Positions 446 through 55,980 of a stretch of DNA of 64,000 bases are shown piece by piece. The stretch is taken from positions 1,516,354 through 1,580,353 of the forward strand of contig OZ245032.1 in NCBI GenBank assembly GCA_965224015.1, written 5' to 3'. Numbering within the stretch: the first letter of the stretch is position 1; every line of letters starts with the position of its first letter. The notes below the pieces were generated by a model. It was not told the DNA's origin, made no database searches, and saw only the letters and a list, made by a program, of their open reading frames with translations. This DNA is from Hyphomicrobiales bacterium. Its GTDB lineage: Bacteria > Pseudomonadota > Alphaproteobacteria > Rhizobiales > CBDCVD01. The position numbers and the translations under genes were made by a program.

Positions 446-1529
446 TATCCTCGACCGGGCCTATACCAGCGGCATCAGCCACTACCAGCGCACGGCGAGG
501 CCGAGGGAGCCCTTGAGGGCATAGCTGTCGCCAAAGTCCTCAAGGTCTGTCGAGACGCTCAACTCCCCATAAAGCGCATAAGCATCATCATTGAAGGCCC
601 GGGTAAAGCGCCCCCCTAGCTCGCCCGTCCAGCGGTGCTGGCCGCTCGTCAAGCGCGTCCCCGCAACATCAACACGAACCCCATCTTCAAACTCATGATA
701 AAGGTTCATGATCCCCTCAACGTGCAAGGCCTGCCCACCGCCATTGTCCTGCCAGGTGCGCTCATGGCTCGCCGCAACCCCCAGACGGGCCAGCACGCTC
801 GTGCCCTCACTGCCGGAGACCACCACCCCGGTACGGCTAGTAAAGTCATCATAAGACACCTTGGAGTAGGCCAGCTGCGCCTGTGGGGTCAGCGTCAGGC
901 CGTTCGCCAGCGCCATCGCCTTACCCACTTCGACACTCAGCCCATAGCCGGTGCCGTCAACGCCATCGGCAAGCTTGCCCACAAGATCCGATGTCAGGTC
1001 ACTGGAGTACCACGTATGGGCCCCCTGCACATCGGCATAAAAGCCCTGAGGCCCGTACCAGGTTCCGGTGAGCCCGACGCCAATACCCGTGGTCTTGATC
1101 TCCCCATTGCCGAAAACCGACGAAAAGTCCGTCTTGCCATGGCTCAAACTGGCGTTGAGGCCGAACACGGCGGTGTTGTCGTTATCATAAACGAACTCTG
1201 CGTCAACGCCCCCTTGCAGTTTGAAGACCTGGGTGTCGCGCTCCGCGACCCCTGTGGTCGAAGATCCGGGGGTTTGATGCGAGAGCCGCCCGCTCATTCT
1301 GGCCCAACTGGTAAGCCAGCGGTCAGGGCTTGCCTTAGCCCCACCGTCACCCTCATGCAAAAGCCCCGCATCCTGGCTTGCGGCCCCCAGGATTAGGGTG
1401 CTTTGCGACCTATTGGAGACCATGTGGGTCACCCGGCTGCCAACCCGCTCGTGCAGGCTCTCCATCCGGTTGAGCTCCAGGGCCGTATGCGCCAGGTTTT
1501 CGTAGGCAACCGCCCCGGGGGAGTAAATC

Positions 1530-2215
1530 CGAGGGCCACCGCCACCGCCCGTGCGATGCTGCTTACCGCCGCTTGGGCCACCGCTCCTACCAGGCTGGTT
1601 ACCGCCGCTTGGGCCACCGCCCGTGCCAGTGCCAGACTGGCCAGGTTGCTGGCCGCCACCGCCACCCTGGCCAGGTTGTTTACCGCCACCGCCACCGCCC
1701 GTGCGATGCTGCTTACCGCCGCTTGGGCCACCGCTCCTACCAGGCTGGTTACCGCTCGTGCCAGGCTGGTTACCTCCGCTTGGGCCACCGCCCGTGCCAG
1801 TGCCAGACTGGCCAGGTTGCTGGCCGCCACCGCCACCCTGGCCAGGTTGTTTACCGCCACCGCCACCCTGGCCAGGTTGTTTACCGCCACCGCCACTGCC
1901 CGTGCCAGACTGGCCAGGTTGCTGGCCGCCACCGCCACCCTGGCCAGGTTGTTTACCGCCACCGCCACCCTGGCCAGGTTGTTTACCGCCACCGCCACTG
2001 CCCGTGCCAGACTGGCCAGGTTGCTGGCCGCCACCGCCACCCTGGCCAGGTTGTTTACCGCCACCGCCACCCTGGCCAGGTTGTTTACCGCCACCGCCCG
2101 TGCCAGTGCCAGGTTGTTTACCGCCACCGCCACTGCCCGTGCCAGACTGGCCAGGTTGCTGGCCGCCACCGCCACCCTGGCCAGGTTGTTTACCGCTAGC
2201 GCCCGGTGTCGTTGG
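1530..2215. repeat. Tandem 30-nt (10-aa GGGGGKQPGQ-type) repeat array in the autotransporter linker
   Basis: Near-identical 30-nt units (cgccaccctggccaggttgtttaccgccac) with SGTGSGGGG variants. Open frames in all phases are a side effect of the repeat. Confidence 0.8.
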
Positions 2216-2899
2216 TGTCGGTGGTGTTGGTGCCATTTCCGAATTCAGAAACCAGTCCTTACCATCTTTCTGCAGGCGATAGGCGTAGACGCCCGCCGTT
2301 ACGAACTGCTCATTTCCGCCTCCAATATTAGGGTTGGTAAAGCCGCCGGTTAGCATGAACTTGCCGCCTGACGTGCCTCGAACTTCAATCAATTGAATTT
2401 TGGCTTTATCGGCACCCTTGCCACTTCGGTTTACGACATACACGTTTGTCGTGCCGCTGGTGGAGCCGGTGATGATTATCCTGTCGGTTTTAGAATTGCT
2501 ATCGCCCAGCACCGTGTCCATCCTGATAGTGCCGCCGCCGGTGTAATCGCCGGTAATTTTGAGCGTGCTGAAATTATTGTTCTGCATGTCGATAGTACTG
2601 CCGACGTTGTTGTGCACACTGCCGTTGATATTGTTCAACTGTGTACCGACAACGAGGGTACCGTCGTTGATGAGCGACAGCAGGCCTGTAGCACCACCGA
2701 GGTTCAGGGTTTGGCCGGTAAATTCGGTGGAACCGCCATCGATGGTGGCGCGTTCGAAACCTTCGAACTGGTCCGCATCCACCGCGGCGGCGTTGTTCGT
2801 GCGGTTCCTGAATACAATCCCATCTTGATTACCACCCCCGCCGTCGAATTCACCGTTTTTAACCTTAGAAAAATCAAAGTCGCGGAGAAAGATCACCTC

Positions 2900-5800
2900 A
2901 TCTTTGCCCCCGCCCAAGGTCACATCACCGTTGATCTTAGCCCCTTCATTGACCGTAAGTTGTGAGTTGCCGTCGCCATTGATAATGGCAGCGGTTCCCC
3001 CCCTGACATCGGCGTTGTCGTTAAGGGTGATCCTGGTCATCCCTCTCACTACTTCACGACTATCAATACCGTATTGGGTCCTGCCTTGCATCAGGCCATC
3101 GACCGCAATCACCGCGTTGCCGGAGCCCTGATGCTTGACAAAAATGCCATTATTTTCGCCGATCACGTTGCCGCTGCCGGAGGTGATCGTTAGGGCGTTG
3201 TTGTTATTTGTGTTATAAATCAATGCATTAATGCCATCTAGAGTTCTTCCGGTGACATTTCCGTTAGTCTCAATGGTCAAGGCTCCGGTACCTCTATGTT
3301 TGGCGAAGATACCGTCTAGGCCACCTTTCACCGCACCTGTGCCGGTGGTGATCGTTAGGGCGCTATCGTTTTGTAGATTGGTTACATAAACACGAATGCC
3401 ATAATGACTCCCTTGACCGGTGACATCCCCGCCACCGGTATTGATCGTCACAGCGCCCTTGCCAGAGTGCCCGGCAACAATGCCGTTTAGGGCACCTGTC
3501 ACCGCGCCTGTGCCGGTGGTGATCGTTAGGTCGTTTGTGTTATTGTTGTTAAAAATCTCTGTATAAATGCCATCATTTTTTGTTCCGGTGATATCTCCGT
3601 TGGTCTCAATGGTCAGGGCTCCGGCACCTTGATGTATGGCGTGGATACCGATTCGGCCTTTCACCGCGCCTGTGCCGGTGGTGATCTTTATGTCGTTTGT
3701 GTTATTTGCGTTAAAAATCTCTGCATAAATGCCATATTCATTTGTTCCGGTGACATTGCCATCGCCGGTGGTGACCGTCACAGCGCCCAGGCCATAATGC
3801 CGGGCGAAGATGCCGTGTTTGCCACCTTTCACCGCACCTGTGCCGGTGGTGATCGTTAGGGCGCTGTTGTTATTTGTGTTATAAATCAATGCATTAATGC
3901 CATCTAGAGTTCTTCCGGTGACATTTCCGTTAGTCTCAATGGTCAAGGCTCCGGTACCTCTATGTTTGGCGAAGATACCGTCTAGGCCACCTTCCACCGC
4001 ACCTGTGCCGGTGGTGATCGTTAGGGCGCTATCGTTTTGTAGATTGGTTACATAAACACGAATGCCATAATGACTCCCTTGACCGGTGACAGCCCCGCCA
4101 CCGGTATTGATCGTCACAGCGCCCTTGCCAGAGTGCTCGGCAACAATGCCGTTTAGGGCACCTGTCACCGCGCCTGTGCCGGTGGTGATCTTTAGGTCGT
4201 TTGTGTTATTGTTGTTAAAAATATCTGCATAAATGCCATCATTTTCTGTTCCGGTGATATCTCCGTTGGTCTCAATGGTCAGGGCTCCGGCACCTTGATG
4301 TGTGGCGCGGATACCGATTCGGCCTTTCACCGCGCCTGTACCGGTGGTGATCGTTATGTCGTTTGTGTTATTTGCGTTAAAAATCTCTGCATAAATGCCA
4401 TATTCATTTGTTCCGGTGACATTGCCATCGCCGGTGGTGATCGTCACAGCGCCCAGGCCACGGTGATCGGTGAAGATACCGTATTTGCCGCCTGTCACTG
4501 CGCCTGTGCCGGTGGTGATCTTTATGTCGTTTGTGTTATTCTGGTTAAAAATCTTTGCATAAATGCCATATTTATTTGTTCCGGTGACATCCCTGTCGCC
4601 GGTCTTGATCGTCACAGCGCCCAGGCCATAATGCTTGGCGAAGATACCGTATTGGCCACCGGTGACAGCGGCATTGGCGGTGATATTGAGCTCTCCGTTG
4701 CCGCCGGTGTTGTTTTTGTCCCCAATCTGTGCATCAATGCCAGCGACGGCTGTTCCGGTGATATCTCCGTTGGTCTCAATGGTCACGGCTCCGGTACCTG
4801 CATGTGTGGCGAAGATGCCGTATTGGCCACCTGTCACCGCGCCTGTGCCGGTGGTGATCGTCACAGCGCCCGTGCCATTGTGCTCCGCCCAGATACCGCG
4901 TCGGCCACCTTCCACCGCGCCTGTGCCGGTGGTGATTGTTAGGGCGCTATCGTTTTGTCGATTGGTTATAAAGCCAAAAATGCCGTCCTCCCCTTGACCG
5001 ATAACATCCCCGTCGCCGGTATTGATCGTCACAGCGCCCAAGCCACGGTGATGGGCGAAGATGCCGTATTTGCCACCTGTCACTTTGCCTGTGCCGGTGG
5101 TAATCTTTAGGGCGTTGTTGTTATCTACGTTATCAATCAATGCATTAATGGCATCTTTATTTGTTCCGGTGATATCTCCTTTGGTCTCAATGGTTACCGC
5201 GCCCTTGCCCTGGTGCTTCGCGAAGATGCCGTGTTTGCCACCTTTCACCGCACCTGTGCCGGTGGTGATCGTTAGGGCGCTGTTGTTATTTGTGTTATAA
5301 ATCAATGCATTAATGCCATCTAGAGTTCTTCCGGTGACATTTCCGTTAGTCTCAATGGTCAAGGCTCCGGTACCTCTATGTTTGGCGAAGATACCGTCTA
5401 GGCCACCTTCCACCGCACCTGTGCCGGTGGTGATCGTTAGGGCGCTATCGTTTTGTAGATTGGTTACATAAACACGAATGCCATAATGACTCCCTTGACC
5501 GGTGACAGCCCCGCCACCGGTATTGATCGTCACAGCGCCCTTGCCAGAGTGCTCGGCAACAATGCCGTTTAGGGCACCTGTCACCGCGCCTGTGCCGGTG
5601 GTGATCTTTAGGTCGTTTGTGTTATTGTTGTTAAAAATATCTGCATAAATGCCATCATTTTCTGTTCCGGTGATATCTCCGTTGGTCTCAATGGTCAGGG
5701 CTCCGGCACCTTGATGTGTGGCGCGGATACCGATTCGGCCTTTCACCGCGCCTGTACCGGTGGTGATCGTTATGTCGTTTGTGTTATTTGCGTTAAAAAT

Positions 5801-6480
5801 CTCTGCATAAATGCCATATTCATTTGTTCCGGTGACATTGCCATCGCCGGTGGTGATCGTCACAGCGCCCAGGCCACGGTGATCGGTGAAGATACCGTAT
5901 TTGCCGCCTGTCACTGCGCCTGTGCCGGTGGTGATCGTTATGTCGTTTGTGTTATTTGCGTTAAAAATCTTTGCATAAATGCCATATTTATTTGTTCCGG
6001 TGACATCCCTGTCGCCGGTCTTGATCGTCACAGCGCCCAGGCCATAATGCTTGGCGAAGATACCGTATTGGCCACCGGTGACAGCGGCATTGGCGGTGAT
6101 ATTGAGCTCTCCGTTGCCGCCGGTGTTGTTTTTGTCCCCAATCTGTGCATCAATGCCAGCGACGGCTGTTCCGGTGATATCTCCGTTGGTCTCAATGGTC
6201 ACGGCTCCGGTACCTGCATGTGTGGCGAAGATGCCGTTTTGGCCACCTGTCACCGCGCCTGTGCCGGTGGTGATTGTTAGGGCGCTATCGTTTTGTCGAT
6301 TGGTTATAAAGCCAAAAATGCCGTCCTTCTGGCCACCGGAGACAGCCCCGTCGCCGGTATTGATCGTCACAGCGCCCGTGCCAAATTGCTCCGCCACGAT
6401 GCCGTATTGGCCACCTGTCACCGCGCCTGTGCCGATGGTGATCGTTAAATCGCCGTCACTACCTGCGCGACCCACGGCTT
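2900..6480. repeat. Passenger-domain repeat array. It includes a near-identical direct duplication of about 1.2 kb (approximately 3805..4990 and 5221..6330, period 1416 bp, with an 84-nt indel) and degenerate sub-repeats of about 165 nt
   Basis: Identical DNA blocks sit 1416 bp apart (e.g. 4291 vs 5707, 3841 vs 5257). The ORF track shows identical antisense ORFs at 4295 and 5711. Confidence 0.75.
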
Positions 6481-6749
6481 GAAGCCCCGCATATGTGCCC
6501 CTTATCTCTTTGCTAGTGGTACTGGTGAACGTGATACCGCCCCCTGCGCTTGTGCTGACAGCGTCAATAGAAATGCCGCGTGTAAATTGAGTAGGCACGT
6601 TGACGGAAAAATCTGCCGAGGTGGTGATCTGGGCGTCTTTTACAGTGATGTCTTGCTGAGTTGTCTTAGGCTGTGGTGACAATTTAAGGAGTTTTGGGTT
6701 CTCAATTGACGACGAATCAGATTCATTACTGACTTTTGAGAGGTTAGTT

Positions 6750-7148
6750 ATGTCTGTTGATGAACTTCGTGATGATCAGTGGGAACGCTTGGAGCCTTTT
6801 ATCCCTGGAGGTCGCAAAGGCCGGCGTGGTCCTCGCAGCAACAACCGCCGTTTTCTTAACGGCCTTCTTTGGATGGCCCGTTCAGGGGCACGCTGGCGAG
6901 ACCTGCCGGAGCGATTTGGCCCCTATCAAACAGTTAAACGCAGGTACTATCGTTGGGTAGAGAACGGTGTTATTGAGCGTATGTTTGAGGCCCTGTCGAA
7001 AGAGGCAGATTTTGAATGGTTGCAGATTGATACAACTATCATCCGGGCACACAAACATGCGGCAGGAGCCCCGCAAAAAAAGGGGGCGCTGCATCCCAAG
7101 GGTTGGGTCGCTGCAAGGGCGGGTTCTCCACCAAACTCCATGCGGTAG
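6750..7148 (+). CDS. IS transposase OrfA (N-terminal part, HTH region)
   Basis: WERLEPFIPGG...NRRFLNGLLWMARSGARWRDLPERFGPYQT is typical of IS5/IS427-group OrfA. A slippery A7G motif lies at 7075..7086. Confidence 0.75.
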   Translation: MSVDELRDDQWERLEPFIPGGRKGRRGPRSNNRRFLNGLLWMARSGARWRDLPERFGPYQTVKRRYYRWVENGVIERMFEALSKEADFEWLQIDTTIIRAHKHAAGAPQKKGALHPKGWVAARAGSPPNSMR

Positions 7149-7510
7149 GCGATGGGTTGGGCCTTCCCGTGCGCTTTGGCGGAGGGCCAGGCCAGGAGAA
7201 CGACATGAAGCAAGCGCTTGATTTGATTGCAGGCTTTGCATCAAGTTATGTTTTTGGTGACCGCGCCTATGATGCAGACAATTTGGTGGAGGCAATTGTG
7301 AAGACCGGTGGTGAAGCGGTTATACCCCCACGCCGGCATCGCACAGATCAGCGTGCATATGACAAAGAGCTGTACAAGGAGCGCAACAGGATCGAACGTC
7401 TATTTGGACGGCTCAAGGAATTCAGACGGGTTGCGACGCGCTATGACAAACTGCTGGCGAATTTTCTTGGCTTCGTTAAACTTGCGGCAATCCAGCTGTG
7501 GCTCAAATAG
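7103..7510 (+). CDS. IS transposase OrfB (DDE domain), probably made as an OrfAB fusion by a -1 frameshift
   Basis: Contains GGFSTKLHAVGDGLGLP...AYDADNLV...NRIERLFGRLKEFRRVATRYDK. The frame is -1 relative to orfA, with the overlap downstream of AAAAAAAGGGGG. Confidence 0.75.
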   Translation: MGRCKGGFSTKLHAVGDGLGLPVRFGGGPGQENDMKQALDLIAGFASSYVFGDRAYDADNLVEAIVKTGGEAVIPPRRHRTDQRAYDKELYKERNRIERLFGRLKEFRRVATRYDKLLANFLGFVKLAAIQLWLK

Positions 7511-8213
7511 TTAAATTGTCACCACAGCCTAGTACCCTCGCAAAAAATTTCGTTTGGTTGTCCACCAGCTTTCAGGTCGCAGGCGGCCAGAGCGGAGGTG
7601 GTGCTGCCGAGGCCAATAAGGGCGCTCAGCCCCGCGCCCACAACACAGGACGCAAGGCCCAACCCGAGAGTCGGCGCCGCACTGGCCACCTGGCCTCGAA
7701 ATTTAACCACATGGCCGCCGCGCAAAACACGTGCGACAAGATTATCAAATGGTGACTTTAAAACGGGTATCCCGCCCTCGGCGCGTTCGTCCACAGCCGT
7801 TGGCTTTGTCGTGCCTTCTGTTCCCATTGATCCTGCCGGGCTCCTCATAATACAAACTCCCCGATGTTCAAAGCCCTTTCGCGTCTTAATAAAGAGCAAC
7901 CCGCAAAGGACTTTAACCGGTTTCACAACAAATTCCCTGATACGGCCGTTTTTTGATAATTATTCAATTGTTGGCAATAGGCTTGCTAACAAAGGAACGG
8001 GTGCCCGTCAACCCCTATATTGTATTCTTACACCGTTGTAATTTCAGGGAAAGTTACCGGTAGGCTGTGCTCGCCCGGCAGTACAAAATCCAGACGCCCA
8101 GACACCCAGACATCCAAGCGTTAAGAGCGTATTCGGTACAATCACAACCGTGATCTGGCTGCCTCAAACCGTGGGGAGGGTTTTAAGGGAAAGAAGCCCT
8201 AAGCAAGAGAATA

Positions 8214-8240
8214 ATACCAAGGGGCTTTGCCCCTTGCATC
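8214..8240 (-). terminator. Probable rho-independent terminator after the podJ-like gene
   Basis: Hairpin aaggggctttgcccctt, followed on the minus strand by a T-rich tract (ttggtattattctc). Confidence 0.4.
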
Positions 8241-8279
8241 ACTTGAGAGCGCTTTTTATCCGCTTAACCGCTTAACCGC

Positions 8280-10904
8280 TTATCCGCGCAAGACGTCCAG
8301 CAGGCGTTTGCTCACCTGCCCGTCTGTGGGAAGTCCGGACCTTTGCTGAAAGGCCCGAATCGCGGCCTGGGTTTTGGGCCCGATAATCCCATCAGGACGG
8401 CCAAGCTGATATCCCTGGTTGATCAGCAGCGCTTGAATTTCCATGATCATTTCTCGGCTCGGTTTTACCGACGCAACAGAAATGCCGGCACTGGCCATAT
8501 CCCAATCGGGATTAGCAGGGATTTTGTTGGCAGCCAAATTGATCGGCTCGGGCTTCCAGGCGTTAACAAGCAGATCGGTGGCGATGCGCATTTGCGGATC
8601 CAGATCGTTGGCAATCTGCGCCTGTTTGGTGGCCGCATCGGTATCACCATCGCGGGCCACAATCGAAAACCATTGATAGGCCTTGGGCAGGCTTTTGGGA
8701 ACGCCAAGGCCGCGGGCATTTAAAATACCCAGGTTGTACTGGCTATCACGCAAACCATGCTTGGCAGCCTGCGCGAACAGTTGCGAGGCCGACGCCAGAT
8801 CCTGTTCCCCGAACGCGCCCTCCGCATAGAGAACACCGAGATTGTGCATCGCCTTCACATTGCCTCGGCCGATGGCCCGTTGATACCAGATGCGGGCCAG
8901 ATCAGCATCCTTGGTGACGCCGCGGCCCTTTTCGTACATAGAGCCTAATCGATATTGCGCCGGCGCGTAGCCCTGATTGGCCGCATGCTCGTACCAGATG
9001 GCCGCCTGGCGCAGATCACGCCCGACCCCTACCCCATCAAGATACCGGGTTCCGATAACGAACTGGGCCTGGGGATCGCCTGCCGCCGCAGCTGCGCGCA
9101 ACTGTGCAGGCTGAATGACCGCAGGAGGTCTGGGTGGTGTCGCGGGGGCAGCCGACGCGGCAGGCTTTAGCTGATCAGCAGGATTATGGCTCGCCGATTG
9201 AATAAGCGCAGGCTCGCGATTGTTGGCCAGTCCGGATATGTCACGGCTTTGCGTGTTCGACGAAGTCGACGAGGTCTCGACAACGGTGCTGTTAACGGCT
9301 TCAGCCAGTTGCTCGGGGGTCGAGGTCGCGTTGTAGTAGTTGTAGACCGCAACGCTGCCGGCAATAAATGCGACCAAACACGCGCCCGCCGCGATGGCCC
9401 CACGATGGTTTTGTAAAAAATCGAACCGGCCCGGCTCCTCAGCCTGCATCTGGACCACGGGCGCGGCTTTACGCTTGGCAAAATGGGCGCGCGGGCGAAC
9501 CTGTGATGTGTTGCGCCGCTGCACGCGATTATGCCCGTGCGACAGCGCGGGACGCGATGACGGGGAAACAGGTGGGGATGGCGGTTCTTGTGCCGGCATG
9601 GGATCCGCTTTGCGGGGATCGTTATGGATCAACGCATCCCGTGCCCCATCCTCTGGCTCGACACCACGCACGGGGGCTGACATCTGTGATAAAATATCAC
9701 CTTGATTTTGATTTTCATCGTGTTCTTGATCGTGTTCTTGCAAGTCACGATCCTCGTCGCGATGCGCGGGTTCAGCCTGTTTAGCCGGTGTGGTTTGCTC
9801 AAGGTGGCTTTCATCTTCATGCAGCGAGAGTTGCTTGAACGAAAACGGCATACGCGGCTCTCGATCGGAGGCGACCTGTTTGGCAGCGGCCAGGCGCCCG
9901 GATTTGGCAAGTAAATCCGCAAGTGTCGTTCCCCCGCCTCTTGCACGGCTAGCGCGCGAGGGCGCGGCCACACGCGTATCAGGCGGCCTTATGGCGGCAG
10001 GTTTTGGAAGATTTTCCACCAATTGCTGCATTTCAAGAAGTTTTGTCTGGATGGAGTTGATTTCGCCAAATCGCTCAATCAGTCCGGAAACCTGCCGATC
10101 CAGGCGCAAAATATCACCATCCAGCCTCTTGATATTATCGCGGCTGTCGATGGTCTCAAGCTTGCGCGACAGGGTGCTGATGCGCGACAGGATATTCTTG
10201 TACCCCTTGTCTGGCAGTGCCGCGAGCAAGCGATGGATGGTGCCGATTTCGCGCCGCAAGTCGTCCACATCACCAGAGTTCATGGGGGTGGACATGGCCG
10301 CTTCAAGGCGCGTGGCCAGGCTGGACAGCTGGGCCTCAACATCGTCAAGACGTGTACCAAGGCTCCCCTGGGCAAAGTCAACGGTCTCTTCGATCGACGC
10401 TACCTTGGCTTCAAGAGCGCGTAAAGAACTGTTACCAGCGGCGCGCAAGAATTCCTGACGCATACGTTGCGCGGTAGACTCCATATTGTCGATGTCGCGC
10501 ATGACATCGACAGGATCACGATCAATATAGGTTTTCGCTACACGGCGAACATTTCCTGTCAAGCGCGCAAAGGCCTTTTGAAAATTTGGCCCTGCATTTC
10601 CCAAGCGCAGAATATTCCCCAAATCATTGATCCGTACCGTCAGTTTTTCCAACCGGCTATGGACTCGCGAAATCGGCATCTGCTGGCGCGGCGCCTCAAC
10701 GCTGTCGACATTATCGCTGGCATCAGGCTCCCCTATCCTGCCACCAAAGGATTCCATTTGCCTGCGCAAAGATTCCAACCGCGCGGCCAGTTCGTCTTTC
10801 TTGACCTGATCGAGTTCGCGGTCCATGGTCTTGAGCGCATCCTGCCGACGCTCATAGGCGCCATCGTCAATGTCGTAAGCCAATTGCTTTTGTGCTGAAG
10901 TCAT
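8280..10904 (-). CDS. podJ: PodJ-like polar localization factor: N-terminal coiled coil, one TM, periplasmic Sel1/TPR repeats and a C-terminal peptidoglycan-binding domain
   Basis: The N-terminal half is a long coiled coil. TM segment GACLVAFIAGSVAVYNYY. Three Sel1-like repeats (AQFVIGTRYLDGVGVGRD..., AQYRLGSMYEKGRGV..., AMHNLGVLYAEG...). C-terminal PG_binding_1-like motif (LINQGYQLGRPDGIIGPKTQAAIRAFQQRSGLPTDG). Confidence 0.6.
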   Translation of the reverse strand: MTSAQKQLAYDIDDGAYERRQDALKTMDRELDQVKKDELAARLESLRRQMESFGGRIGEPDASDNVDSVEAPRQQMPISRVHSRLEKLTVRINDLGNILRLGNAGPNFQKAFARLTGNVRRVAKTYIDRDPVDVMRDIDNMESTAQRMRQEFLRAAGNSSLRALEAKVASIEETVDFAQGSLGTRLDDVEAQLSSLATRLEAAMSTPMNSGDVDDLRREIGTIHRLLAALPDKGYKNILSRISTLSRKLETIDSRDNIKRLDGDILRLDRQVSGLIERFGEINSIQTKLLEMQQLVENLPKPAAIRPPDTRVAAPSRASRARGGGTTLADLLAKSGRLAAAKQVASDREPRMPFSFKQLSLHEDESHLEQTTPAKQAEPAHRDEDRDLQEHDQEHDENQNQGDILSQMSAPVRGVEPEDGARDALIHNDPRKADPMPAQEPPSPPVSPSSRPALSHGHNRVQRRNTSQVRPRAHFAKRKAAPVVQMQAEEPGRFDFLQNHRGAIAAGACLVAFIAGSVAVYNYYNATSTPEQLAEAVNSTVVETSSTSSNTQSRDISGLANNREPALIQSASHNPADQLKPAASAAPATPPRPPAVIQPAQLRAAAAAGDPQAQFVIGTRYLDGVGVGRDLRQAAIWYEHAANQGYAPAQYRLGSMYEKGRGVTKDADLARIWYQRAIGRGNVKAMHNLGVLYAEGAFGEQDLASASQLFAQAAKHGLRDSQYNLGILNARGLGVPKSLPKAYQWFSIVARDGDTDAATKQAQIANDLDPQMRIATDLLVNAWKPEPINLAANKIPANPDWDMASAGISVASVKPSREMIMEIQALLINQGYQLGRPDGIIGPKTQAAIRAFQQRSGLPTDGQVSKRLLDVLRG

Positions 10905-30761: not shown

Positions 30762-30833
30762 TGATTGATAGCTGAATGGTAGAAGCGGCGAACTAAGACT
30801 TCGCAATTATGGGTTCGAGTCCCATTCAATCAT
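30762..30833 (+). tRNA. tRNA-like sequence 1, probably a degenerate or pseudo tRNA (apparent anticodon AAG)
   Basis: Perfect 7-bp acceptor stem tgattga/tcaatca, T-arm atggg-ttcgagt-cccat, anticodon stem gcgaa/ttcgc. The D-arm is degenerate (gctg...aagc) and no CCA is encoded. Confidence 0.35.
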
Positions 30834-30904
30834 TGATGTAGCTCAATTGGTAGAGCATCAGATTAGGGATCTGAGGGTAGAGGGTTCGATTCCCTCCATC
30901 TCCA
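30832..30904 (+). tRNA. tRNA-like sequence 2, with a defective acceptor stem (apparent anticodon AGG)
   Basis: Canonical D-arm tagctcaattggtagagca, anticodon stem tcaga/tctga, T-arm gaggg-ttcgatt-ccctc. The acceptor pairs only 4 of 7 positions (attgatg vs catctcc). Its 5' end overlaps the 3' end of sequence 1. Confidence 0.35.
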
Positions 30905-31250: not shown

Positions 31251-31353
31251 ATACCAGCGGTATTGCCTTTATAGACACGCCGACTGGTGTACGGCCTTGA
31301 TAACATACTTGCTTGACGCTAAGCCATGAGTCATTGTTAAAGACCCTTGGTAT
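31251..31353 (+). repeat. MITE family A copy (103 bp, ATACCAGCGGTAT...ACCCTTGGTAT)
   Basis: Member of an 8-copy family with imperfect terminal inverted repeats ataccagcgg/cccttggtat. Confidence 0.8.
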
Positions 31354-39615: not shown

Positions 39616-39719
39616 AAAACCAAGGGTCCTTAACAATGACTCATGGCTTAGCGTCAAGTCAGTATGTTATCAAGGCAGTACACCAGTCGGCGTGTCTATA
39701 AAGCCAATACCGCTGGTAT
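39616..39719 (-). repeat. MITE family A copy (reverse orientation)
   Basis: accaagggtcc...aagccaataccgctggtat. Confidence 0.8.
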
Positions 39720-40171: not shown

Positions 40172-40202
40172 TTCCTGGGAAGGCCTTGGGGCCAACGCTC
40201 TA

Positions 40203-40305
40203 ATACCAAGGGTCTTTAACAATGACCCATGGCTTAGCGTCAAGCAAGTATGTTATCAAGGCCGTACACCAGTCGGCGTGTATATAAAGCCAATACCGCT
40301 GGTAT
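40203..40305 (-). repeat. MITE family A copy (reverse orientation)
   Basis: ataccaagggtcttt...ccaataccgctggtat. Confidence 0.8.
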
Positions 40306-41490: not shown

Positions 41491-41764
41491 TAGAGCGTAT
41501 CAGGTTTTAATAGAACCATTCTGACGGAGCGATTTTGCGACAAGATGGGCCTTAAGTCTCGCAGGATATAGTGGGGCTATTTGCAAGAGGCTTAAGGCCC
41601 ATATTGGCGCAAAAGCGCCCGTCCCTTCGGGTTTCCGATTGGCGGACGCCCACGCCCAAGCCGCTCTCGAGAGATGGATAAACATCGCTCTTCGATCGCC
41701 TTGAGCGTGGTTCGCCTCGCCAATCAAGAAACAGAATTGATTCTATTAAGACCTGATACGCTCT
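41491..41764. repeat. Roughly 270-bp element bounded by long imperfect inverted repeats (30-45 bp) and containing nested hairpins
   Basis: Left tagagcgtatcaggttttaatagaaccattctg (41491..41523) pairs with right cagaattgattctattaagacctgatacgctcta (41732..41764). Internal hairpins gggccttaag...cttaaggccc and cgtcccttcgggtttccgattggcggacg. Confidence 0.6.
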
Positions 41765-41845
41765 ATGGGGTCGCACAGTATTTTGCGCTGTTTTGTTGTA
41801 TTGCGTATACGGTTGCCTGTTTGCGTTGAGTTAGGAGTAGCGGGC

Positions 41846-45556: not shown

Positions 45557-46480
45557 ATGCATCCGGCATATTCGGTAATCGCCTTTACAACCCTCTCGGG
45601 CGCGGGGTTCGGGCTTGGTTTTTTTCTAAGCCTGGGTGTGTTGCCTTTGACGCAGGAGGTTGGCATCGCGGCCTGGGGAAGTGTATTCGCACTAATCATA
45701 AGCGGCCTGATAGCGTCCCTTGTTCATTTAAAACAGCCCCAGCGGTTTATTTTAGCGCTAACACAATGGCGCTCAAGCTGGCTGTCCCGTGAAGCCGTGC
45801 TGGCGCTTGCAACACTGGTTCCGTTCGCAATCTGCGCCTTTGGATGGATCGTTTATGGCGTATTCTGGTGGGTTGCGGGACTGGCGGGTGCCATATTGGC
45901 GACGGCAACGGTCTATGCCACGGCGATGATTTACGCTAGTCTGAAACCGATACGCCACTGGGCCCATCCCGTCACACCTTTCCTTTATCTGGGATTTGCA
46001 CTTTCCAACGGCGCTGGCTTATTTCTCGTTCTGGGTACCTGGTCCATGCGGATTCCAAGTTCGTGGATACTTACCACCGGCCTTGCGATCGTGTTTGCCA
46101 TGCTCACCCAAATGTTATGGTGGATCAGCAATGATAACGCCCGTTCAAGCGCAACCATCGGGAGCGCAACGGGGCTCGCACGCTTTGGCAAGGTCAAGGA
46201 ACTCACCCCACCGCACACCCAGGAAAACTATGTGCAAAAAGAAATGGGATTTCGTATAGCGCGCAAGCATCGCCTTAAACTTCGTTTTATCGCCACTCTT
46301 TTGGGACTTGTGATGCCTTTGTTGTTCCTCGCGCTGGCTTACATGCTGGAAGGTTTGTGGGGAATTTTGTTCCCGATGGCCGCGGCGGCACATTTTATTG
46401 CCACTTTGATTACAAGGTGGTTGTTTTTTGCCGAGGCACGGCATACGGCCATGCTGTATTATGGTGAAGAGAGAACCTGA
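45557..46480 (+). CDS. NrfD/PsrC-like integral membrane anchor subunit (SoeC-like)
   Basis: 8-TM hydrophobic protein directly downstream of the FeS subunit. Confidence 0.6.
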   Translation: MHPAYSVIAFTTLSGAGFGLGFFLSLGVLPLTQEVGIAAWGSVFALIISGLIASLVHLKQPQRFILALTQWRSSWLSREAVLALATLVPFAICAFGWIVYGVFWWVAGLAGAILATATVYATAMIYASLKPIRHWAHPVTPFLYLGFALSNGAGLFLVLGTWSMRIPSSWILTTGLAIVFAMLTQMLWWISNDNARSSATIGSATGLARFGKVKELTPPHTQENYVQKEMGFRIARKHRLKLRFIATLLGLVMPLLFLALAYMLEGLWGILFPMAAAAHFIATLITRWLFFAEARHTAMLYYGEERT

Positions 46481-46582
46481 TACCAGCGGTATAGGCTTTA
46501 TAGACACGCCGACTGGTGTATTGCCTTGATAACACAACGCTTTGACGCAAATGCATGAGTCATTGGCAAGGACCCTTGGTAT
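46480..46582 (+). repeat. MITE family A copy abutting the stop of the membrane-anchor gene
   Basis: ataccagcggtataggctttatagacacgccgactggtgtattgcc...gacccttggtat. Confidence 0.8.
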
Positions 46583-46672
46583 GAAACCTATCGCTCGAAA
46601 TGTAAGGGAAGGCGTTCCTTGTGCATTCCACAGGCCTGACAAAAGAGAAACGTCCATTTGTGACCTGCCCGC

Positions 46673-49303: not shown

Positions 49304-49413
49304 CCGACTCATACCAAGGGTCCTTAACAATGACTCATGGATTAGCGTCAAGCAAGTATGTTATCAAGGCCGTACACCAGTCGGCGTGTACATAAAGCCA
49401 ATACCGCTGGTAT
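49304..49413 (-). repeat. MITE family A copy ending exactly at the rplU stop codon
   Basis: ataccaagggtccttaacaatgactcatgg...aagccaataccgctggtat. The terminal tat overlaps the stop TGA (complement 49413..49415). Confidence 0.8.
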
Positions 49414-50093
49414 CAGTCACCGTCCTTGCCACCGGATGTCTCAACGCCGGCTGCCTCGGCAGCCTTCTGATCGATTTTGGCACGAGGAGCCTTGCCCGCC
49501 ACCAGCTCCCTGGCCTGCTCTATCCATTCTTCCCGCGCGCTACGTCCCTGCAAGTCCAAATTTTCATCAAGCGCGGCCATTTCATCCTGACTGAGGTTGG
49601 CGATCTGCTGAAATTGCGTATACCCGGCCTCGTTGAGCTTTTTCACAATAACGGGTCCGACGCCGGAAATCAGCGACAAGTCATCGGAAGCGGGGTCGGA
49701 TTTTGTGGTTTCGTTCGGCGCGCTGGCTTTTTCCTGCCCCTTTACCACCCGATCAGCGACCTCGACGGGTTTGGGTTTATCCCCGGCACCCACAATATCG
49801 GTCACGCGGACAACCGTTTGATATTGCCGGTGCCCCTTGGTGCGACGATATTTCTTGCGTCGTTTTTTCTTGAAAACAATAATCTTCCTGGCACGCTTTT
49901 GCTCAACAATGCGGGCGCTCACGCTCGCCCCCGCCACAAGAGGGTCACCAATTACCGGCGCCTCTCCACCGATCATCAACACCTCTGCAAATGTAACCGT
50001 ATCGCCGGCCGCACCCGTCAGTTTTTCAACCGTTAACACATCGTTAGCGGCAACACGATACTGCTTGCCGCCGGTCTTAATGATTGCGAACAT
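49413..50093 (-). CDS. rplU: 50S ribosomal protein L21 with a long C-terminal extension
   Basis: N-terminus MFAIIKTGGKQYRVAANDVLTVEKL is canonical L21. Beyond about 105 aa comes a Lys/Glu-rich extension with a helix-hairpin-helix-like LISGVGPVIVKKLNEAGYTQFQQIANLS segment. Confidence 0.85.
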   Translation of the reverse strand: MFAIIKTGGKQYRVAANDVLTVEKLTGAAGDTVTFAEVLMIGGEAPVIGDPLVAGASVSARIVEQKRARKIIVFKKKRRKKYRRTKGHRQYQTVVRVTDIVGAGDKPKPVEVADRVVKGQEKASAPNETTKSDPASDDLSLISGVGPVIVKKLNEAGYTQFQQIANLSQDEMAALDENLDLQGRSAREEWIEQARELVAGKAPRAKIDQKAAEAAGVETSGGKDGD

Positions 50094-50283
50094 CGCCCTT
50101 CACCTAATTTTTCGCGCCCTGCGGTGCCGATATTCTCGGTCTTTACGCTACAGATCGGCAAATGTAGAGCCTGCAATTTCTGCAAGCCCATTTCATATTG
50201 CCATCTCAAGCAACCTCAAGCAGCGATTTCCCCTCGGGGACCTGAAACCAAATAGCAATATCGGGTTTTACAAGCACCAGCTT

Positions 50284-50386
50284 ATACCAGCGGTATTGGC
50301 TTTATAGACACGCCGACTGGTGTACTGCCTTGATAACACATCTCTTTGACGCTAAGCCATGAGTCATTGTTAAAGACCCTTGGTAT
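50284..50386 (+). repeat. MITE family A copy upstream of rplU
   Basis: ataccagcggtattggctttatagacacgccgactggtgtactgccttgataacaca...gacccttggtat. Confidence 0.8.
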
Positions 50387-50622
50387 TAAAGCGCCCAAAA
50401 CCCGATATCGCAAGTCTTTTATCACAAACAGCCGTCAATATCCACCTCCATTGCCAAAACCAAAGAGGCCTCCTGCAACTGTTTGTTTGTTAACGTACCC
50501 CCATGCGCTTTGGTGCAAATGCCTCTCCCAAGCCTGCACCGCACAGCAACATAGGCAAAGGTGCGAGAAAGTCAACACACCTGGCCTTATAACCTTACCA
50601 CCTGACGGAATAATACCAAGGG

Positions 50623-50715
50623 TCCTTACCAATGACTCATGGATTAGCGTCAAGCAAGTATGTTATCAAGGCCCTACACCAGTCGGCGTGTCTATAAAGC
50701 CAATACCGCTGGTAT
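50623..50715 (-). repeat. MITE family A copy (reverse orientation)
   Basis: ataccaagggtccttaccaatgactcatggattagcg...ccaataccgctggtat. Confidence 0.8.
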
Positions 50716-51263: not shown

Positions 51264-51418
51264 GGTGGGCAAAAAAAAACGCCGCGAATCGAAGTAACCG
51301 ATTCCAGCGTCGCCTCTCACGATGGTATCAAGTCCCTTCAAACCGCCGTCTGACAACGATTGTCACCCCCTTTTGGGCATGTTCCACCCGTGCGGTTCAA
51401 GCGCAAAGCGAGGGTTTG

Positions 51419-51521
51419 ATACCAGCGGTATTGGCTTTATAGACACGCCGACTGGTGTACTGCCTTGATAACATACCTCTTTGACGCTAAGCCATGAGTC
51501 ATTGTTAAAGACCCTTGGTAT
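51419..51521 (+). repeat. MITE family A copy
   Basis: ataccagcggtattggctttatagacacgccgactggtgtactgccttgataacatacctctttgacgctaagccatgagtcattgttaaagacccttggtat. Confidence 0.8.
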
Positions 51522-51685
51522 GACTTGCGTTTCAATGCCATCCCCCTTATTGGAAAACGCGGATCTATCTCCGTGCTTACCATAAAGGCCCATAAAGACG
51601 GTGCGCGGGATTGGATAACACCGTTGTTTGTTCCTAGGCTGACAGAACCCCATGTCACGTGAGCAGGCTTGATGAATTGGAAACT

Positions 51686-55281: not shown

Positions 55282-55405
55282 GTCGAGGATTAATGCACCG
55301 TCCAACTTTACTGGAAGCGTCCTTTCTTGGTGCCGCAGGCGCTTTGGCTGACACAATTGGCATTTTTATCTCGAAGGCCGATCGCGGGGTCGGTAGTCCG
55401 ATCTT

Positions 55406-55904: not shown

Positions 55905-55980
55905 GCTCCCTTCGTCTAGTGGCCTAGGACGCCGGCCTCTCACGCCGGAAACAGGGGTTCGAGTCCCCTAGGGAGCGCCA
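55905..55980 (+). tRNA. tRNA-Glu (anticodon CUC)
   Basis: Cloverleaf: acceptor gctccct/agggagc, D-arm gtctagtggcctaggac, anticodon stem ccggc/gccgg with loop ctCTCac, T-arm aggggttcgagtcccct, encoded CCA. Closely resembles bacterial tRNA-Glu. Confidence 0.85.

What the first reader, a model, noticed from the sequence alone, without database searches (positions are those of the whole stretch)
6667..7531. IS711/IS427-like element inserted into the 5' end of a giant autotransporter gene, with an apparently reversible in-frame disruption
The 861-bp IS has perfect 20-bp terminal inverted repeats and an OrfA/OrfB pair with an A7G slippery site. It sits between TA copies at a TTAG target (YTAR, the preference reported for IS711-type elements).

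It splits a roughly 2,190-aa autotransporter ORF into two pieces. The signal-peptide-encoding 5' piece (7519..7926) now reads into the right IR and stops. The passenger plus beta-barrel piece (482..6682) restarts from a TTG inside the left IR.

Removing 863 bp (the IS plus one TA) restores a continuous frame: ...FCEGT|KTTQQDITVK... The insertion therefore looks recent and non-degenerative. The adhesin would be switched off, or expressed without a signal peptide from an IS-borne start, and precise excision could switch it back on.
Basis: seen in the sequence. Interest (0 to 1): 0.7.

Follow-up and report, generated by a model that had tools for sequence, protein, structure and literature searches.

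The report
Insertion sequence splitting an autotransporter gene
An intact 861-bp jumping gene of a common type (IS5 family, IS427 group) has recently landed just after the signal-peptide region of a very large surface-protein (autotransporter) gene and knocked it out; this is an ordinary kind of mutation, and nothing here shows that it acts as a reversible switch.

Summary
Window 6669-7529 is an intact 861-bp IS with perfect 19-bp (not 20-bp) terminal inverted repeats. It is flanked by a duplicated TA at a TTAG site. It carries OrfA/OrfB with an in-phase A_AAA_AAG -1 slippery site. The fused 253-aa transposase is an IS5-family DDE enzyme; the nearest named relative is ISRel11, at 63% aa identity with near-identical IRs.

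The IS interrupts a type Va autotransporter gene on the minus strand, 16 codons after a signal-peptide-like segment. Removing 863 bp in silico restores a 2193-codon frame.

The closest homolog, in a Hyphomicrobiales MAG, is uninterrupted across this site. That MAG holds two 98.4%-identical IS copies elsewhere, both at CTAG with TA duplicated.

The "reversible switch" and "IS-borne restart" readings have no support:
- I found no outward promoter and no Shine-Dalgarno sequence before the TTG.
- No empty-site allele turned up in metagenomes.
- The gene holds 29% of the window's YTAG targets, so it is a large target.
- The MAG homolog is independently broken by an IS630-like element, which looks more like decay than switching.

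Verdict: a recent, ordinary IS knockout by a new member of a known IS group. Interest is low.

The parts
6669..7529 (+). Complete 861-bp insertion sequence (IS5 family, IS427-group type). The transposase is on the + strand, antisense to the interrupted gene.
   Evidence: Only one copy in the window.
6669..6687 (+). Left terminal inverted repeat GGCTGTGGTGACAATTTAA
   Evidence: perfect 19-bp match to the right IR; 0 expected by chance
7511..7529 (-). Right terminal inverted repeat (reverse complement of the left IR)
6667..6668 (.). Left copy of the duplicated target dinucleotide TA (target TTAG)
   Evidence: The same TA duplication is seen at CTAG in two MAG copies and in ISRel11.
7530..7531 (.). 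Right copy of the duplicated TA
6750..7148 (+). OrfA (132 aa; DUF4096 N-terminal DNA-binding-type domain)
7076..7082 (+). A_AAA_AAG heptamer in the OrfA frame; candidate programmed -1 frameshift site joining OrfA to OrfB
   Evidence: The two-piece organisation is conserved in most relatives. ISRel11 has an A5G6 run at the same position. Frameshifting itself is inferred.
7082..7510 (+). OrfB frame after the slip (DDE catalytic region, contains YKERNRIERLFGRLK, i.e. the Y(2)R(3)E(6)K signature). The fused OrfAB is 253 aa.
   Evidence: The motif was read directly from the translation.
7532..7848 (-). 5' fragment of the autotransporter gene. The probable start is ATG 7848, preceded by GGGGAG. The open frame extends up to GTG 7926, and the mechanical ORF 7519-7926 ends 3 codons into the IS.
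7579..7710 (-). Signal-peptide-like segment. It has a basic n-region (VKFRGQ), a ~30-aa hydrophobic core and a SALA|AC cleavage or lipobox-like motif. It ends 16 codons before the insertion point.
   Evidence: hydropathy and sequence reading. No dedicated signal-peptide predictor was available.
482..6668 (-). 3' fragment of the autotransporter gene: repetitive passenger, autochaperone, Gly/Pro-rich linker, beta-barrel and stop codon
2345..2605 (-). Autochaperone domain type 1 (PF18883)
   Evidence: E=1.3e-15. The nearest solved structures are AIDA-I 4mee and IcsA 3ml3.
563..1306 (-). Autotransporter beta-barrel domain (PF03797). The protein ends ...LGLAVRW.
   Evidence: E=2.4e-33; TIGR01414 E=3.3e-61
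8019..8047 (-). Only sigma-70-like promoter match in 6300-8300. It lies upstream of the autotransporter start. Weak evidence.
   Evidence: 9 of 12 matches; number of sites not above the shuffle expectation. The region is conserved in the MAG homolog.

Best explanation
A recent simple transposition of an active IS5-family (IS427-group type) insertion sequence into a TTAG site in the 5' region of a ~2170-2190-codon type Va autotransporter gene.

Shown:
- The element is structurally complete: perfect IRs, a TA target duplication, and OrfA/OrfB with an in-phase A_AAA_AAG site and an intact DDE/YREK region.
- It separates the signal-peptide-like region from the passenger, autochaperone and barrel.
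- The upstream fragment terminates 3 codons into the IS.

Inferred:
- The gene is now a null allele. Anything translated from the downstream fragment would lack a signal peptide and could not reach the outer membrane.
- The insertion is young, because the direct repeats and IRs are undamaged and 6.2 kb of downstream frame is still open.
- It most likely hit this gene because the gene is long and unusually rich in the IS's YTAG target. It is probably not an evolved switch.
- Reversion by precise excision is possible in principle, as for any simple insertion, but is expected to be rare and is not evidenced here.
For: IS anatomy. Transposase family: (NF033580 at 290 bits, DUF4096, DDE_Tnp_1).

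Group traits match published IS5/IS427 elements of Alphaproteobacteria: 832-865 bp, IRs of 13-21 bp, a 2-bp DR, and two ORFs with a frameshift motif (PMC3281130). They also match IS711's TA duplication at YTAR (PMC2266754).

Named relative ISRel11: 862 bp, IRs identical at 17-18 of 19 positions, CTAG target with TA duplicated, 63% aa identity.

Activity in the lineage: two copies, 98.4% identical to the window's and identical to each other, sit at different CTAG sites in Hyphomicrobiales MAG OZ244974.1.

Gene identity. In-silico excision gives one 2193-codon frame.

The closest homolog runs uninterrupted across the site, at 92% nt identity upstream and 88% downstream.

The gene contains 36 of the window's 123 YTAG sites in about 10% of its length.

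No outward promoter was found. An IS427-group element tested experimentally (IS1248) gave no outward transcription (PMC3281130).
Against: - No strain with the exact empty site (TTAG) was found. The only homolog has TCAG there and lies in a different genomic neighbourhood, so orthology by synteny is not shown.
- Recency is inferred from intactness, not dated.
- Loss of function is inferred, with no expression data.
- Precedents exist for reversible IS insertion in surface-structure genes (IS1301 in siaA, IS492 in eps, IS5 at fucAO; PMC5493358), so a switching role cannot be excluded.
Confidence: 0.85

Rival explanations
1. IS-mediated phase variation. The IS inserts into and precisely excises from this site at a useful frequency, switching the autotransporter adhesin off and on in the population, as reported for IS1301 in the meningococcal siaA gene.
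For: - Removing the IS plus one TA restores a perfect frame, and neither fragment carries secondary damage.
- Precise-excision switching is documented for IS1301/siaA, IS492/eps and IS5/fucAO (PMC5493358).
- The target is a large surface protein, a typical class of phase-variable gene.
- The homolog in the related MAG is also IS-disrupted.
Against: - No empty-site allele was found in two metagenome scans, and there is only one homolog among 5.8 billion proteins.
- The MAG disruption is by a different IS (IS630-like), at a different site, with additional frame changes and a stop codon. That pattern looks like decay rather than a dedicated hotspot.
- The direct repeat is only 2 bp, which gives little substrate for slippage-type excision (inference).
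- An IS427-group element formed co-integrates, suggesting replicative rather than excisive transposition (PMC3281130).
- The gene is simply target-rich.
Confidence: 0.09
2. The IS drives or permits expression of the downstream fragment. This could be from an outward or hybrid promoter and the TTG in the left IR, or by read-through from the native promoter. The result would be a signal-less passenger-barrel protein with some function.
For: - An open frame runs from TTG 6682 inside the IR through 2066 codons.
- The outward-facing IR end contains TTGTCA, which matches the -35 consensus at 5 of 6 positions (read).
Against: - The promoter scan finds no sigma-70-like site at either IS end, and no acceptable -10 lies 16-18 nt after TTGTCA (read).
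- No Shine-Dalgarno sequence precedes the TTG. The upstream sequence is ttgagaacccaaaactccttaaa.
- Two terminator-like hairpins lie on the minus strand inside the IS.
- IS1248 of the same group gave no outward transcription (PMC3281130).
- An autotransporter without a signal peptide cannot be exported (established knowledge of type Va secretion).
Confidence: 0.03
3. Assembly artefact: a repeated IS was wrongly placed into the gene by the assembler.
For: The IS is a multi-copy element in the related genome, and repeats are classic sources of misassembly.
Against: The junctions have the exact signature of real transposition. The IR ends are complete, a TA duplication is present at a YTAG site, and the flanks rejoin to give the uninterrupted homolog sequence base for base apart from one SNP.
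Confidence: 0.02

Closest known systems
ISRel11 (IS5 family) of Rhizobium etli plasmid p42d, as annotated by PGAP
   Same: Length 862 vs 861 bp. IRs GGCTGTAGTGACAAATTAA / GGCTGCAGTGACAATTTAA against GGCTGTGGTGACAATTTAA. CTAG target with TA duplicated. Two-frame transposase with an A/G run at the same position.
   Different: Only 67% nt and 63% aa identity. The slippery run is A5G6 there and A7G5 here. By the usual ISfinder practice (my knowledge) this would count as a separate, new IS.
IS711 (IS6501) of Brucella
   Same: Size class (842 bp), ~20-bp IRs, two overlapping ORFs thought to be joined by a -1 frameshift, and TA duplication at YTAR (PMC2266754). All of these traits are present here.
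IS427-group elements of Paracoccus (IS1248, ISPaes1, ISPam4 and others)
   Same: 832-865 bp, IRs of 13-21 bp, a 2-bp DR, two overlapping ORFs with a conserved frameshift motif, and a DDE motif that is complete only in the fusion protein (PMC3281130).
   Different: Not compared at sequence level here. IS1248 appeared to transpose replicatively and lacked an outward promoter. Whether that also applies to this element is unknown.
IS1301 insertion/excision in Neisseria meningitidis siaA; IS492 in Pseudoalteromonas eps
   Same: A small IS sits inside a surface-structure gene, and its removal restores the gene (PMC5493358).
   Different: In those systems both states and the precise excision were shown experimentally, at a single hotspot. 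Here only the 'off' state is seen, with no evidence of a hotspot or of excision.
AIDA-I / IcsA-type (type Va) autotransporters
   Same: C-terminal PF03797 barrel, AC_1 autochaperone with best solved-structure matches to AIDA-I (4mee) and IcsA (3ml3), a repetitive Gly-rich passenger, and a C-terminal aromatic residue.
   Different: The passenger has no Pfam match and only one detectable homolog. There is a long N-terminal extension without the ESPR motif, a lipobox-like LAAC, and an unusual GGGGKQPGQ-type linker.

Membership tests
IS5 family, IS427 group | DDE transposase of the IS4/IS5 type (DDE_Tnp_1) with the Y(2)R(3)E(6)K signature | tested here: met
   PF01609 E=1.4e-18, NF033580 at 290 bits against a cut-off of 110. 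YKERNRIERLFGRLK was read in the fused protein.
IS5 family, IS427 group | Small size (~0.8-0.9 kb), short terminal IRs and a 2-bp target duplication | tested here: met
   861 bp, 19-bp IRs, TA/TA. Published range in PMC3281130 Table 2.
IS5 family, IS427 group | Two overlapping ORFs with a frameshift motif; the complete DDE is present only in the fusion | tested here: met
   OrfA and OrfB are in the 0 and -1 frames with A_AAA_AAG in phase. Relatives match in two pieces. Actual frameshifting cannot be tested here. No downstream stimulatory structure was detected (z=+1.8).
IS5 family, IS427 group | Target YTAR with the central TA duplicated (described for IS711) | tested here: met
   TTAG here. 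CTAG at both MAG copies and at ISRel11. Reference: PMC2266754.
IS5 family, IS427 group | Sequence similarity to the type elements IS427 / IS711 themselves, or ISfinder assignment | not tested
   No ISfinder access and no IS711/IS427 reference sequence was held. The nearest named relative found is ISRel11.
Type Va (classical) autotransporter | C-terminal 12-strand beta-barrel translocator domain ending in an aromatic residue | tested here: met
   PF03797 E=2.4e-33, TIGR01414 E=3.3e-61. The protein ends ...AVRW.
Type Va (classical) autotransporter | Passenger with an autochaperone region preceding the barrel | tested here: met
   PF18883 AC_1 E=1.3e-15. PDB matches to AIDA-I and IcsA autochaperones.
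Type Va (classical) autotransporter | N-terminal Sec signal peptide | tested here: inconclusive
   A basic n-region, a ~30-aa hydrophobic core and ALA|AC are present in the 5' fragment, but no signal-peptide predictor was available. No ESPR Pfam hit. The MAG homolog has a TAG just before the hydrophobic core.
IS-mediated phase variation (IS1301/siaA type) | Filled and precisely restored alleles coexist in one lineage | tested here: inconclusive
   No empty-site allele in JGI metagenomes. The window's genome is not in the protein or contig collections. The only IS-free homolog is a diverged copy with TCAG at the site.
IS-mediated phase variation (IS1301/siaA type) | Insertion hotspot used recurrently | not testable with these tools
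   Only one instance of this insertion is known. The homolog's disruption is by another IS at another site.
IS-mediated phase variation (IS1301/siaA type) | Demonstrated precise excision restoring expression | not testable with these tools
   This needs an experiment.

The most novel reading that the evidence does not exclude
In this uncultured Hyphomicrobiales lineage the giant autotransporter is switched off and on by IS traffic. The IS427-group element would insert at the TA just after the signal peptide and excise precisely. The independent IS630-type hit in the sister genome would then reflect recurrent, selected IS-mediated silencing of the same surface protein. That would make it an IS1301/siaA-like phase-variation system in an environmental alphaproteobacterium.
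Probability: 0.08. Interest if true: 0.45.

Novelty: new member of a known kind. Interest (0 to 1): 0.2.

Why it matters
The practical value is mainly for annotation. The two ORFs 7519-7926 and 482-6682 should be annotated as one IS-disrupted autotransporter pseudogene, not as two genes. The IS is a new, apparently active ISRel11-like element that could be deposited in ISfinder.

If reversible switching were shown, it would extend IS-mediated phase variation of surface proteins to environmental Hyphomicrobiales. Nothing here indicates that it occurs.

Tried and rejected
- Exact-pattern scans of JGI metagenome contigs found nothing. I tried the empty site (GGGTACTRAGACAACTCAGCAAGACATCACTGT) and a conserved 26-mer next to it.
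- Exact-protein look-ups for OrfA, the neighbouring Sel1/PG-binding protein and a thiolase returned nothing. The window's genome is therefore not in that collection, and I could not compare strains.
- I looked for a frameshift-stimulating structure downstream of the slippery site and found none. The segment folds less stably than shuffled sequence (z=+1.83).
- I looked for an outward or hybrid promoter at the IS ends and found none. The IR-junction DNA has no notable hairpin.
- Rfam found only three tRNAs in the window and nothing in or near the IS.
- The IS630-like element that breaks the MAG homolog has no copy in the window. The only matches there are to passenger sequence included at the edge of the query.
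- Full-length Pfam scanning of the 2066-aa fragment missed the barrel domain. It appeared only when I scanned the C-terminal 405 aa alone.
- My first attempt to fuse the ISRel11 ORFs at an A6G motif failed, because that element has A5G6 instead. I redid it by hand.
- I considered and rejected the idea that the IS is related to the two MITE-like repeat families in the window. Their termini are unrelated.

Full report
**1. Checking the observation**

I read window 6400-8100 directly and listed ORFs.

The element spans 6669-7529, which is 861 bp. Its ends are GGCTGTGGTGACAATTTAA and the exact reverse complement. With up to 3 mismatches allowed, this motif occurs only at those two places in the 64-kb window, and none is expected by chance.

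TA flanks both ends (6667-6668 and 7530-7531), and the reconstructed target is TTAG.

Deleting 863 bp (the IS plus one TA) fuses the two minus-strand ORFs into one 2193-codon frame with the junction ...NEIFCEGT|KTTQQDITVK.... In the interrupted state the upstream ORF ends FCEGT-RLW*, three codons into the right IR. The downstream ORF is listed from a TTG inside the left IR.

**2. What the element is**

OrfA is 6750-7148, and a second frame runs to 7510 in the -1 phase. The A7G run at 7075-7082 is phased A_AAA_AAG in the OrfA frame, which is the classical -1 slippery heptamer.

The conceptual 253-aa fusion protein matches:
- DUF4096 (E=1.7e-25) and DDE_Tnp_1 (E=1.4e-18) in Pfam;
- NCBIfam NF033580 "IS5 family transposase" at 290 bits against a cut-off of 110.

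The C-terminal part contains YKERNRIERLFGRLK, which is the Y(2)R(3)E(6)K signature of IS4/IS5 transposases (family knowledge applied to the translation).

tblastn against plasmids finds about 2,800 records. Most match in two pieces, so the split-frame layout is conserved. The best identity is 68%. At DNA level the best matches are about 67%, to rhizobial elements annotated as ISRel11.

I fetched the ISRel11 copy of R. etli p42d. It is 862 bp long, and its IRs are identical to the window's at 17-18 of 19 positions. It sits at CTAG with TA duplicated and has an A5G6 run at the same position. The fused transposase is 63% identical.

These traits match two published descriptions:
- IS5/IS427-group elements of Alphaproteobacteria: 832-865 bp, IRs of 13-21 bp, a 2-bp DR, and two ORFs with a frameshift motif (PMC3281130).
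- IS711: 842 bp, ~20-bp IRs, a -1 frameshift, and TA duplicated at YTAR (PMC2266754).

I found no stimulatory RNA structure after the slippery site.

**3. Other copies**

One exact-IR scan of 185,579 species-representative genomes returned 52 stretches. BLAST of the IS against them shows two full-length copies at 98.4% identity in a 3.39-Mb Hyphomicrobiales MAG (OZ244974.1). All the others are at or below about 68%.

The two MAG copies are identical to each other. Both have one mismatch in the right IR. They sit at different CTAG sites with TA duplicated, in places with no long ORF. So the element has moved recently in this lineage, and 4 of 4 inspected sites are YTAG.

**4. What it hit**

*C-terminal part.* The C-terminal 405 aa match the autotransporter beta-domain PF03797 (E=2.4e-33) and TIGR01414 (E=3.3e-61). 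Upstream lies an AC_1 autochaperone (E=1.3e-15), whose best solved-structure matches are AIDA-I and IcsA. The protein ends ...LGLAVRW.

*Passenger.* The passenger is built from 165/330-bp tandem repeats, and a GGGGKQPGQ-type linker precedes the barrel.

*5' fragment.* This fragment has no Pfam or NCBIfam hit. It contains a basic stretch (VKFRGQ), a ~30-residue hydrophobic core and SALA|AC. These are signal-peptide features with a lipobox-like LAAC, and they end 16 codons before the insertion. The best-looking start is ATG 7848, which is preceded by GGGGAG.

The IS therefore separates the export signal from everything that has to be exported.

**5. Is the uninterrupted state real?**

A 234-aa query spanning the junction found a single homolog among 5.8 billion proteins (P0001, 84% identity). 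It is encoded in the same Hyphomicrobiales MAG.

Its DNA aligns to the in-silico-restored window sequence straight across the site, at 93% identity over 1059 bp. It reads GGGTACTGAGACAAC where the restored window reads GGGTACTAAGACAAC.

There are three caveats:
- The empty site there is TCAG, not the predicted TTAG.
- The homology block (window 8186 down to 461) has different neighbouring genes in the two genomes, so orthology by synteny is not shown.
- The MAG copy is itself broken by an IS630-like element (HTH plus DDE_3), at least two frame changes and a TAG before the hydrophobic core. Some of these could be errors in a 15x MAG assembly.

A rough dN/dS between the two copies is 0.29 for the barrel. 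It is about 1.6-1.7 for the N-terminal 100 codons and the first 200 passenger codons, based on small counts. This pattern fits a fast-evolving or decaying passenger attached to a historically constrained barrel.

**6. How it most likely works**

Shown:
- The IS is complete and inserted in antisense orientation.
- All three minus-strand frames through it are closed within 9 codons.

Inferred:
- The gene is a null allele.
- The insertion is young, because the DRs and IRs are undamaged and 6.2 kb of frame remains open.
- The gene was hit because it is a large target. It holds 36 of the window's 123 YTAG sites in about 10% of the sequence.

**7.

*(a) Expression from an IS-borne start.* The TTG at 6682 is simply the first start codon after a stop. 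The sequence before it has no Shine-Dalgarno match (read). The consensus scan finds no promoter at either IS end, and the only hit is upstream of the native gene start at 8047-8019. An IS427-group element tested experimentally gave no outward transcription (PMC3281130). A signal-less autotransporter also cannot be secreted.

*(b) Reversibility.* Genuine precedents exist: IS1301/siaA, IS492/eps and IS5/fucAO (PMC5493358). The idea is therefore legitimate, but the sequence offers nothing beyond the trivial fact that removing an insertion restores the gene. Two metagenome scans for an empty or neighbouring allele were blank. Exact-protein look-ups show that the window's genome is not in the collections. 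IS1248 of the same group appears to transpose replicatively. The independent, messier disruption of the MAG homolog looks like gene decay.

**8. Comparison and novelty**

The element meets every IS5/IS427-group criterion I could test. Direct similarity to IS711 and IS427 themselves, and ISfinder assignment, were not testable. At 63% aa identity to ISRel11 it is a new member of a known group. IS disruption of a large surface-protein gene is commonplace.

I put the probability of a real on/off switch at about 0.08.

**9. Verdict**

The functional part (reversible switch, IS-borne restart) is unsupported. Interest is 0.2.

Noticed in passing
window 49311-49416, 40200-40305, 50613-50715, 31251-31353, 51417-51523, 39619-39719, 50281-50386, 46477-46584 (partials near 55403, 34709, 62537); also L001 9200-9306: An interspersed ~105-bp intergenic repeat family, with at least 8 full copies in 64 kb at 86-96% identity. 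Its ends are ATACCAAGGG...CCGCTGGTAT, which are inverted, so it looks like a MITE. It has no Rfam match and is unrelated to the IS ends.
   Followed up: partly
window 41491-41765; L001 9134-9509 and 16837-17111: A ~275-bp element with ~34-bp terminal inverted repeats. In the related MAG, two inverted copies, one carrying a nested 105-bp repeat, exactly bracket the autotransporter homology block. In the window the single copy lies 33 kb away. The autotransporter block has different neighbours in the two genomes, which suggests rearrangement or mobility of the block.
   Followed up: partly
L001 12672-13629 (MAG OZ244974.1): The homologous autotransporter in the related MAG is interrupted by an IS630-like element (HTH plus DDE_3 ORFs). 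It also has at least two frame changes and a TAG codon before the signal-peptide core. This is either an independent pseudogenisation or partly assembly error.
   Followed up: partly
window 3175-4861 and 5004-6286 (- strand gene): The passenger domain is built from 165/330-bp (55/110-aa) tandem repeats, with kilobase-scale segmental duplications. The window copy is longer than the MAG copy through repeat expansion.
   Followed up: no
window 1541-2205 (- strand gene): Gly/Pro/Gln-rich 30-bp-period repeats encode a GGGGKQPGQ-type low-complexity linker between the autochaperone and the beta-barrel. This is unusual for autotransporters.
   Followed up: no
window 7579-7590 (- strand): The signal-peptide-like region ends in LAAC, a lipobox-like motif. 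The autotransporter may therefore have been a lipoprotein, as a few others are. This was not tested with a predictor.
   Followed up: no
window 8256-8287: An 8-bp unit, TTAACCGC, is repeated four times in tandem at the 3' end of the Sel1/peptidoglycan-binding gene (8280-10904, - strand).
   Followed up: no
L025 4130-5855 and L048 2302-4027 (Roseibium MAG); many loci of Rhodospirillales MAG OZ243926.1: Related IS elements (~66% identity) with the same 19-bp IR occur as back-to-back tandem pairs in a Roseibium MAG. They also occur in more than 25 copies in one Rhodospirillales MAG.
   Followed up: no
window 30762-30900: Two tRNA genes lie directly adjacent, with a 1-bp gap, and a third tRNA is at 55905-55977.
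   Followed up: no
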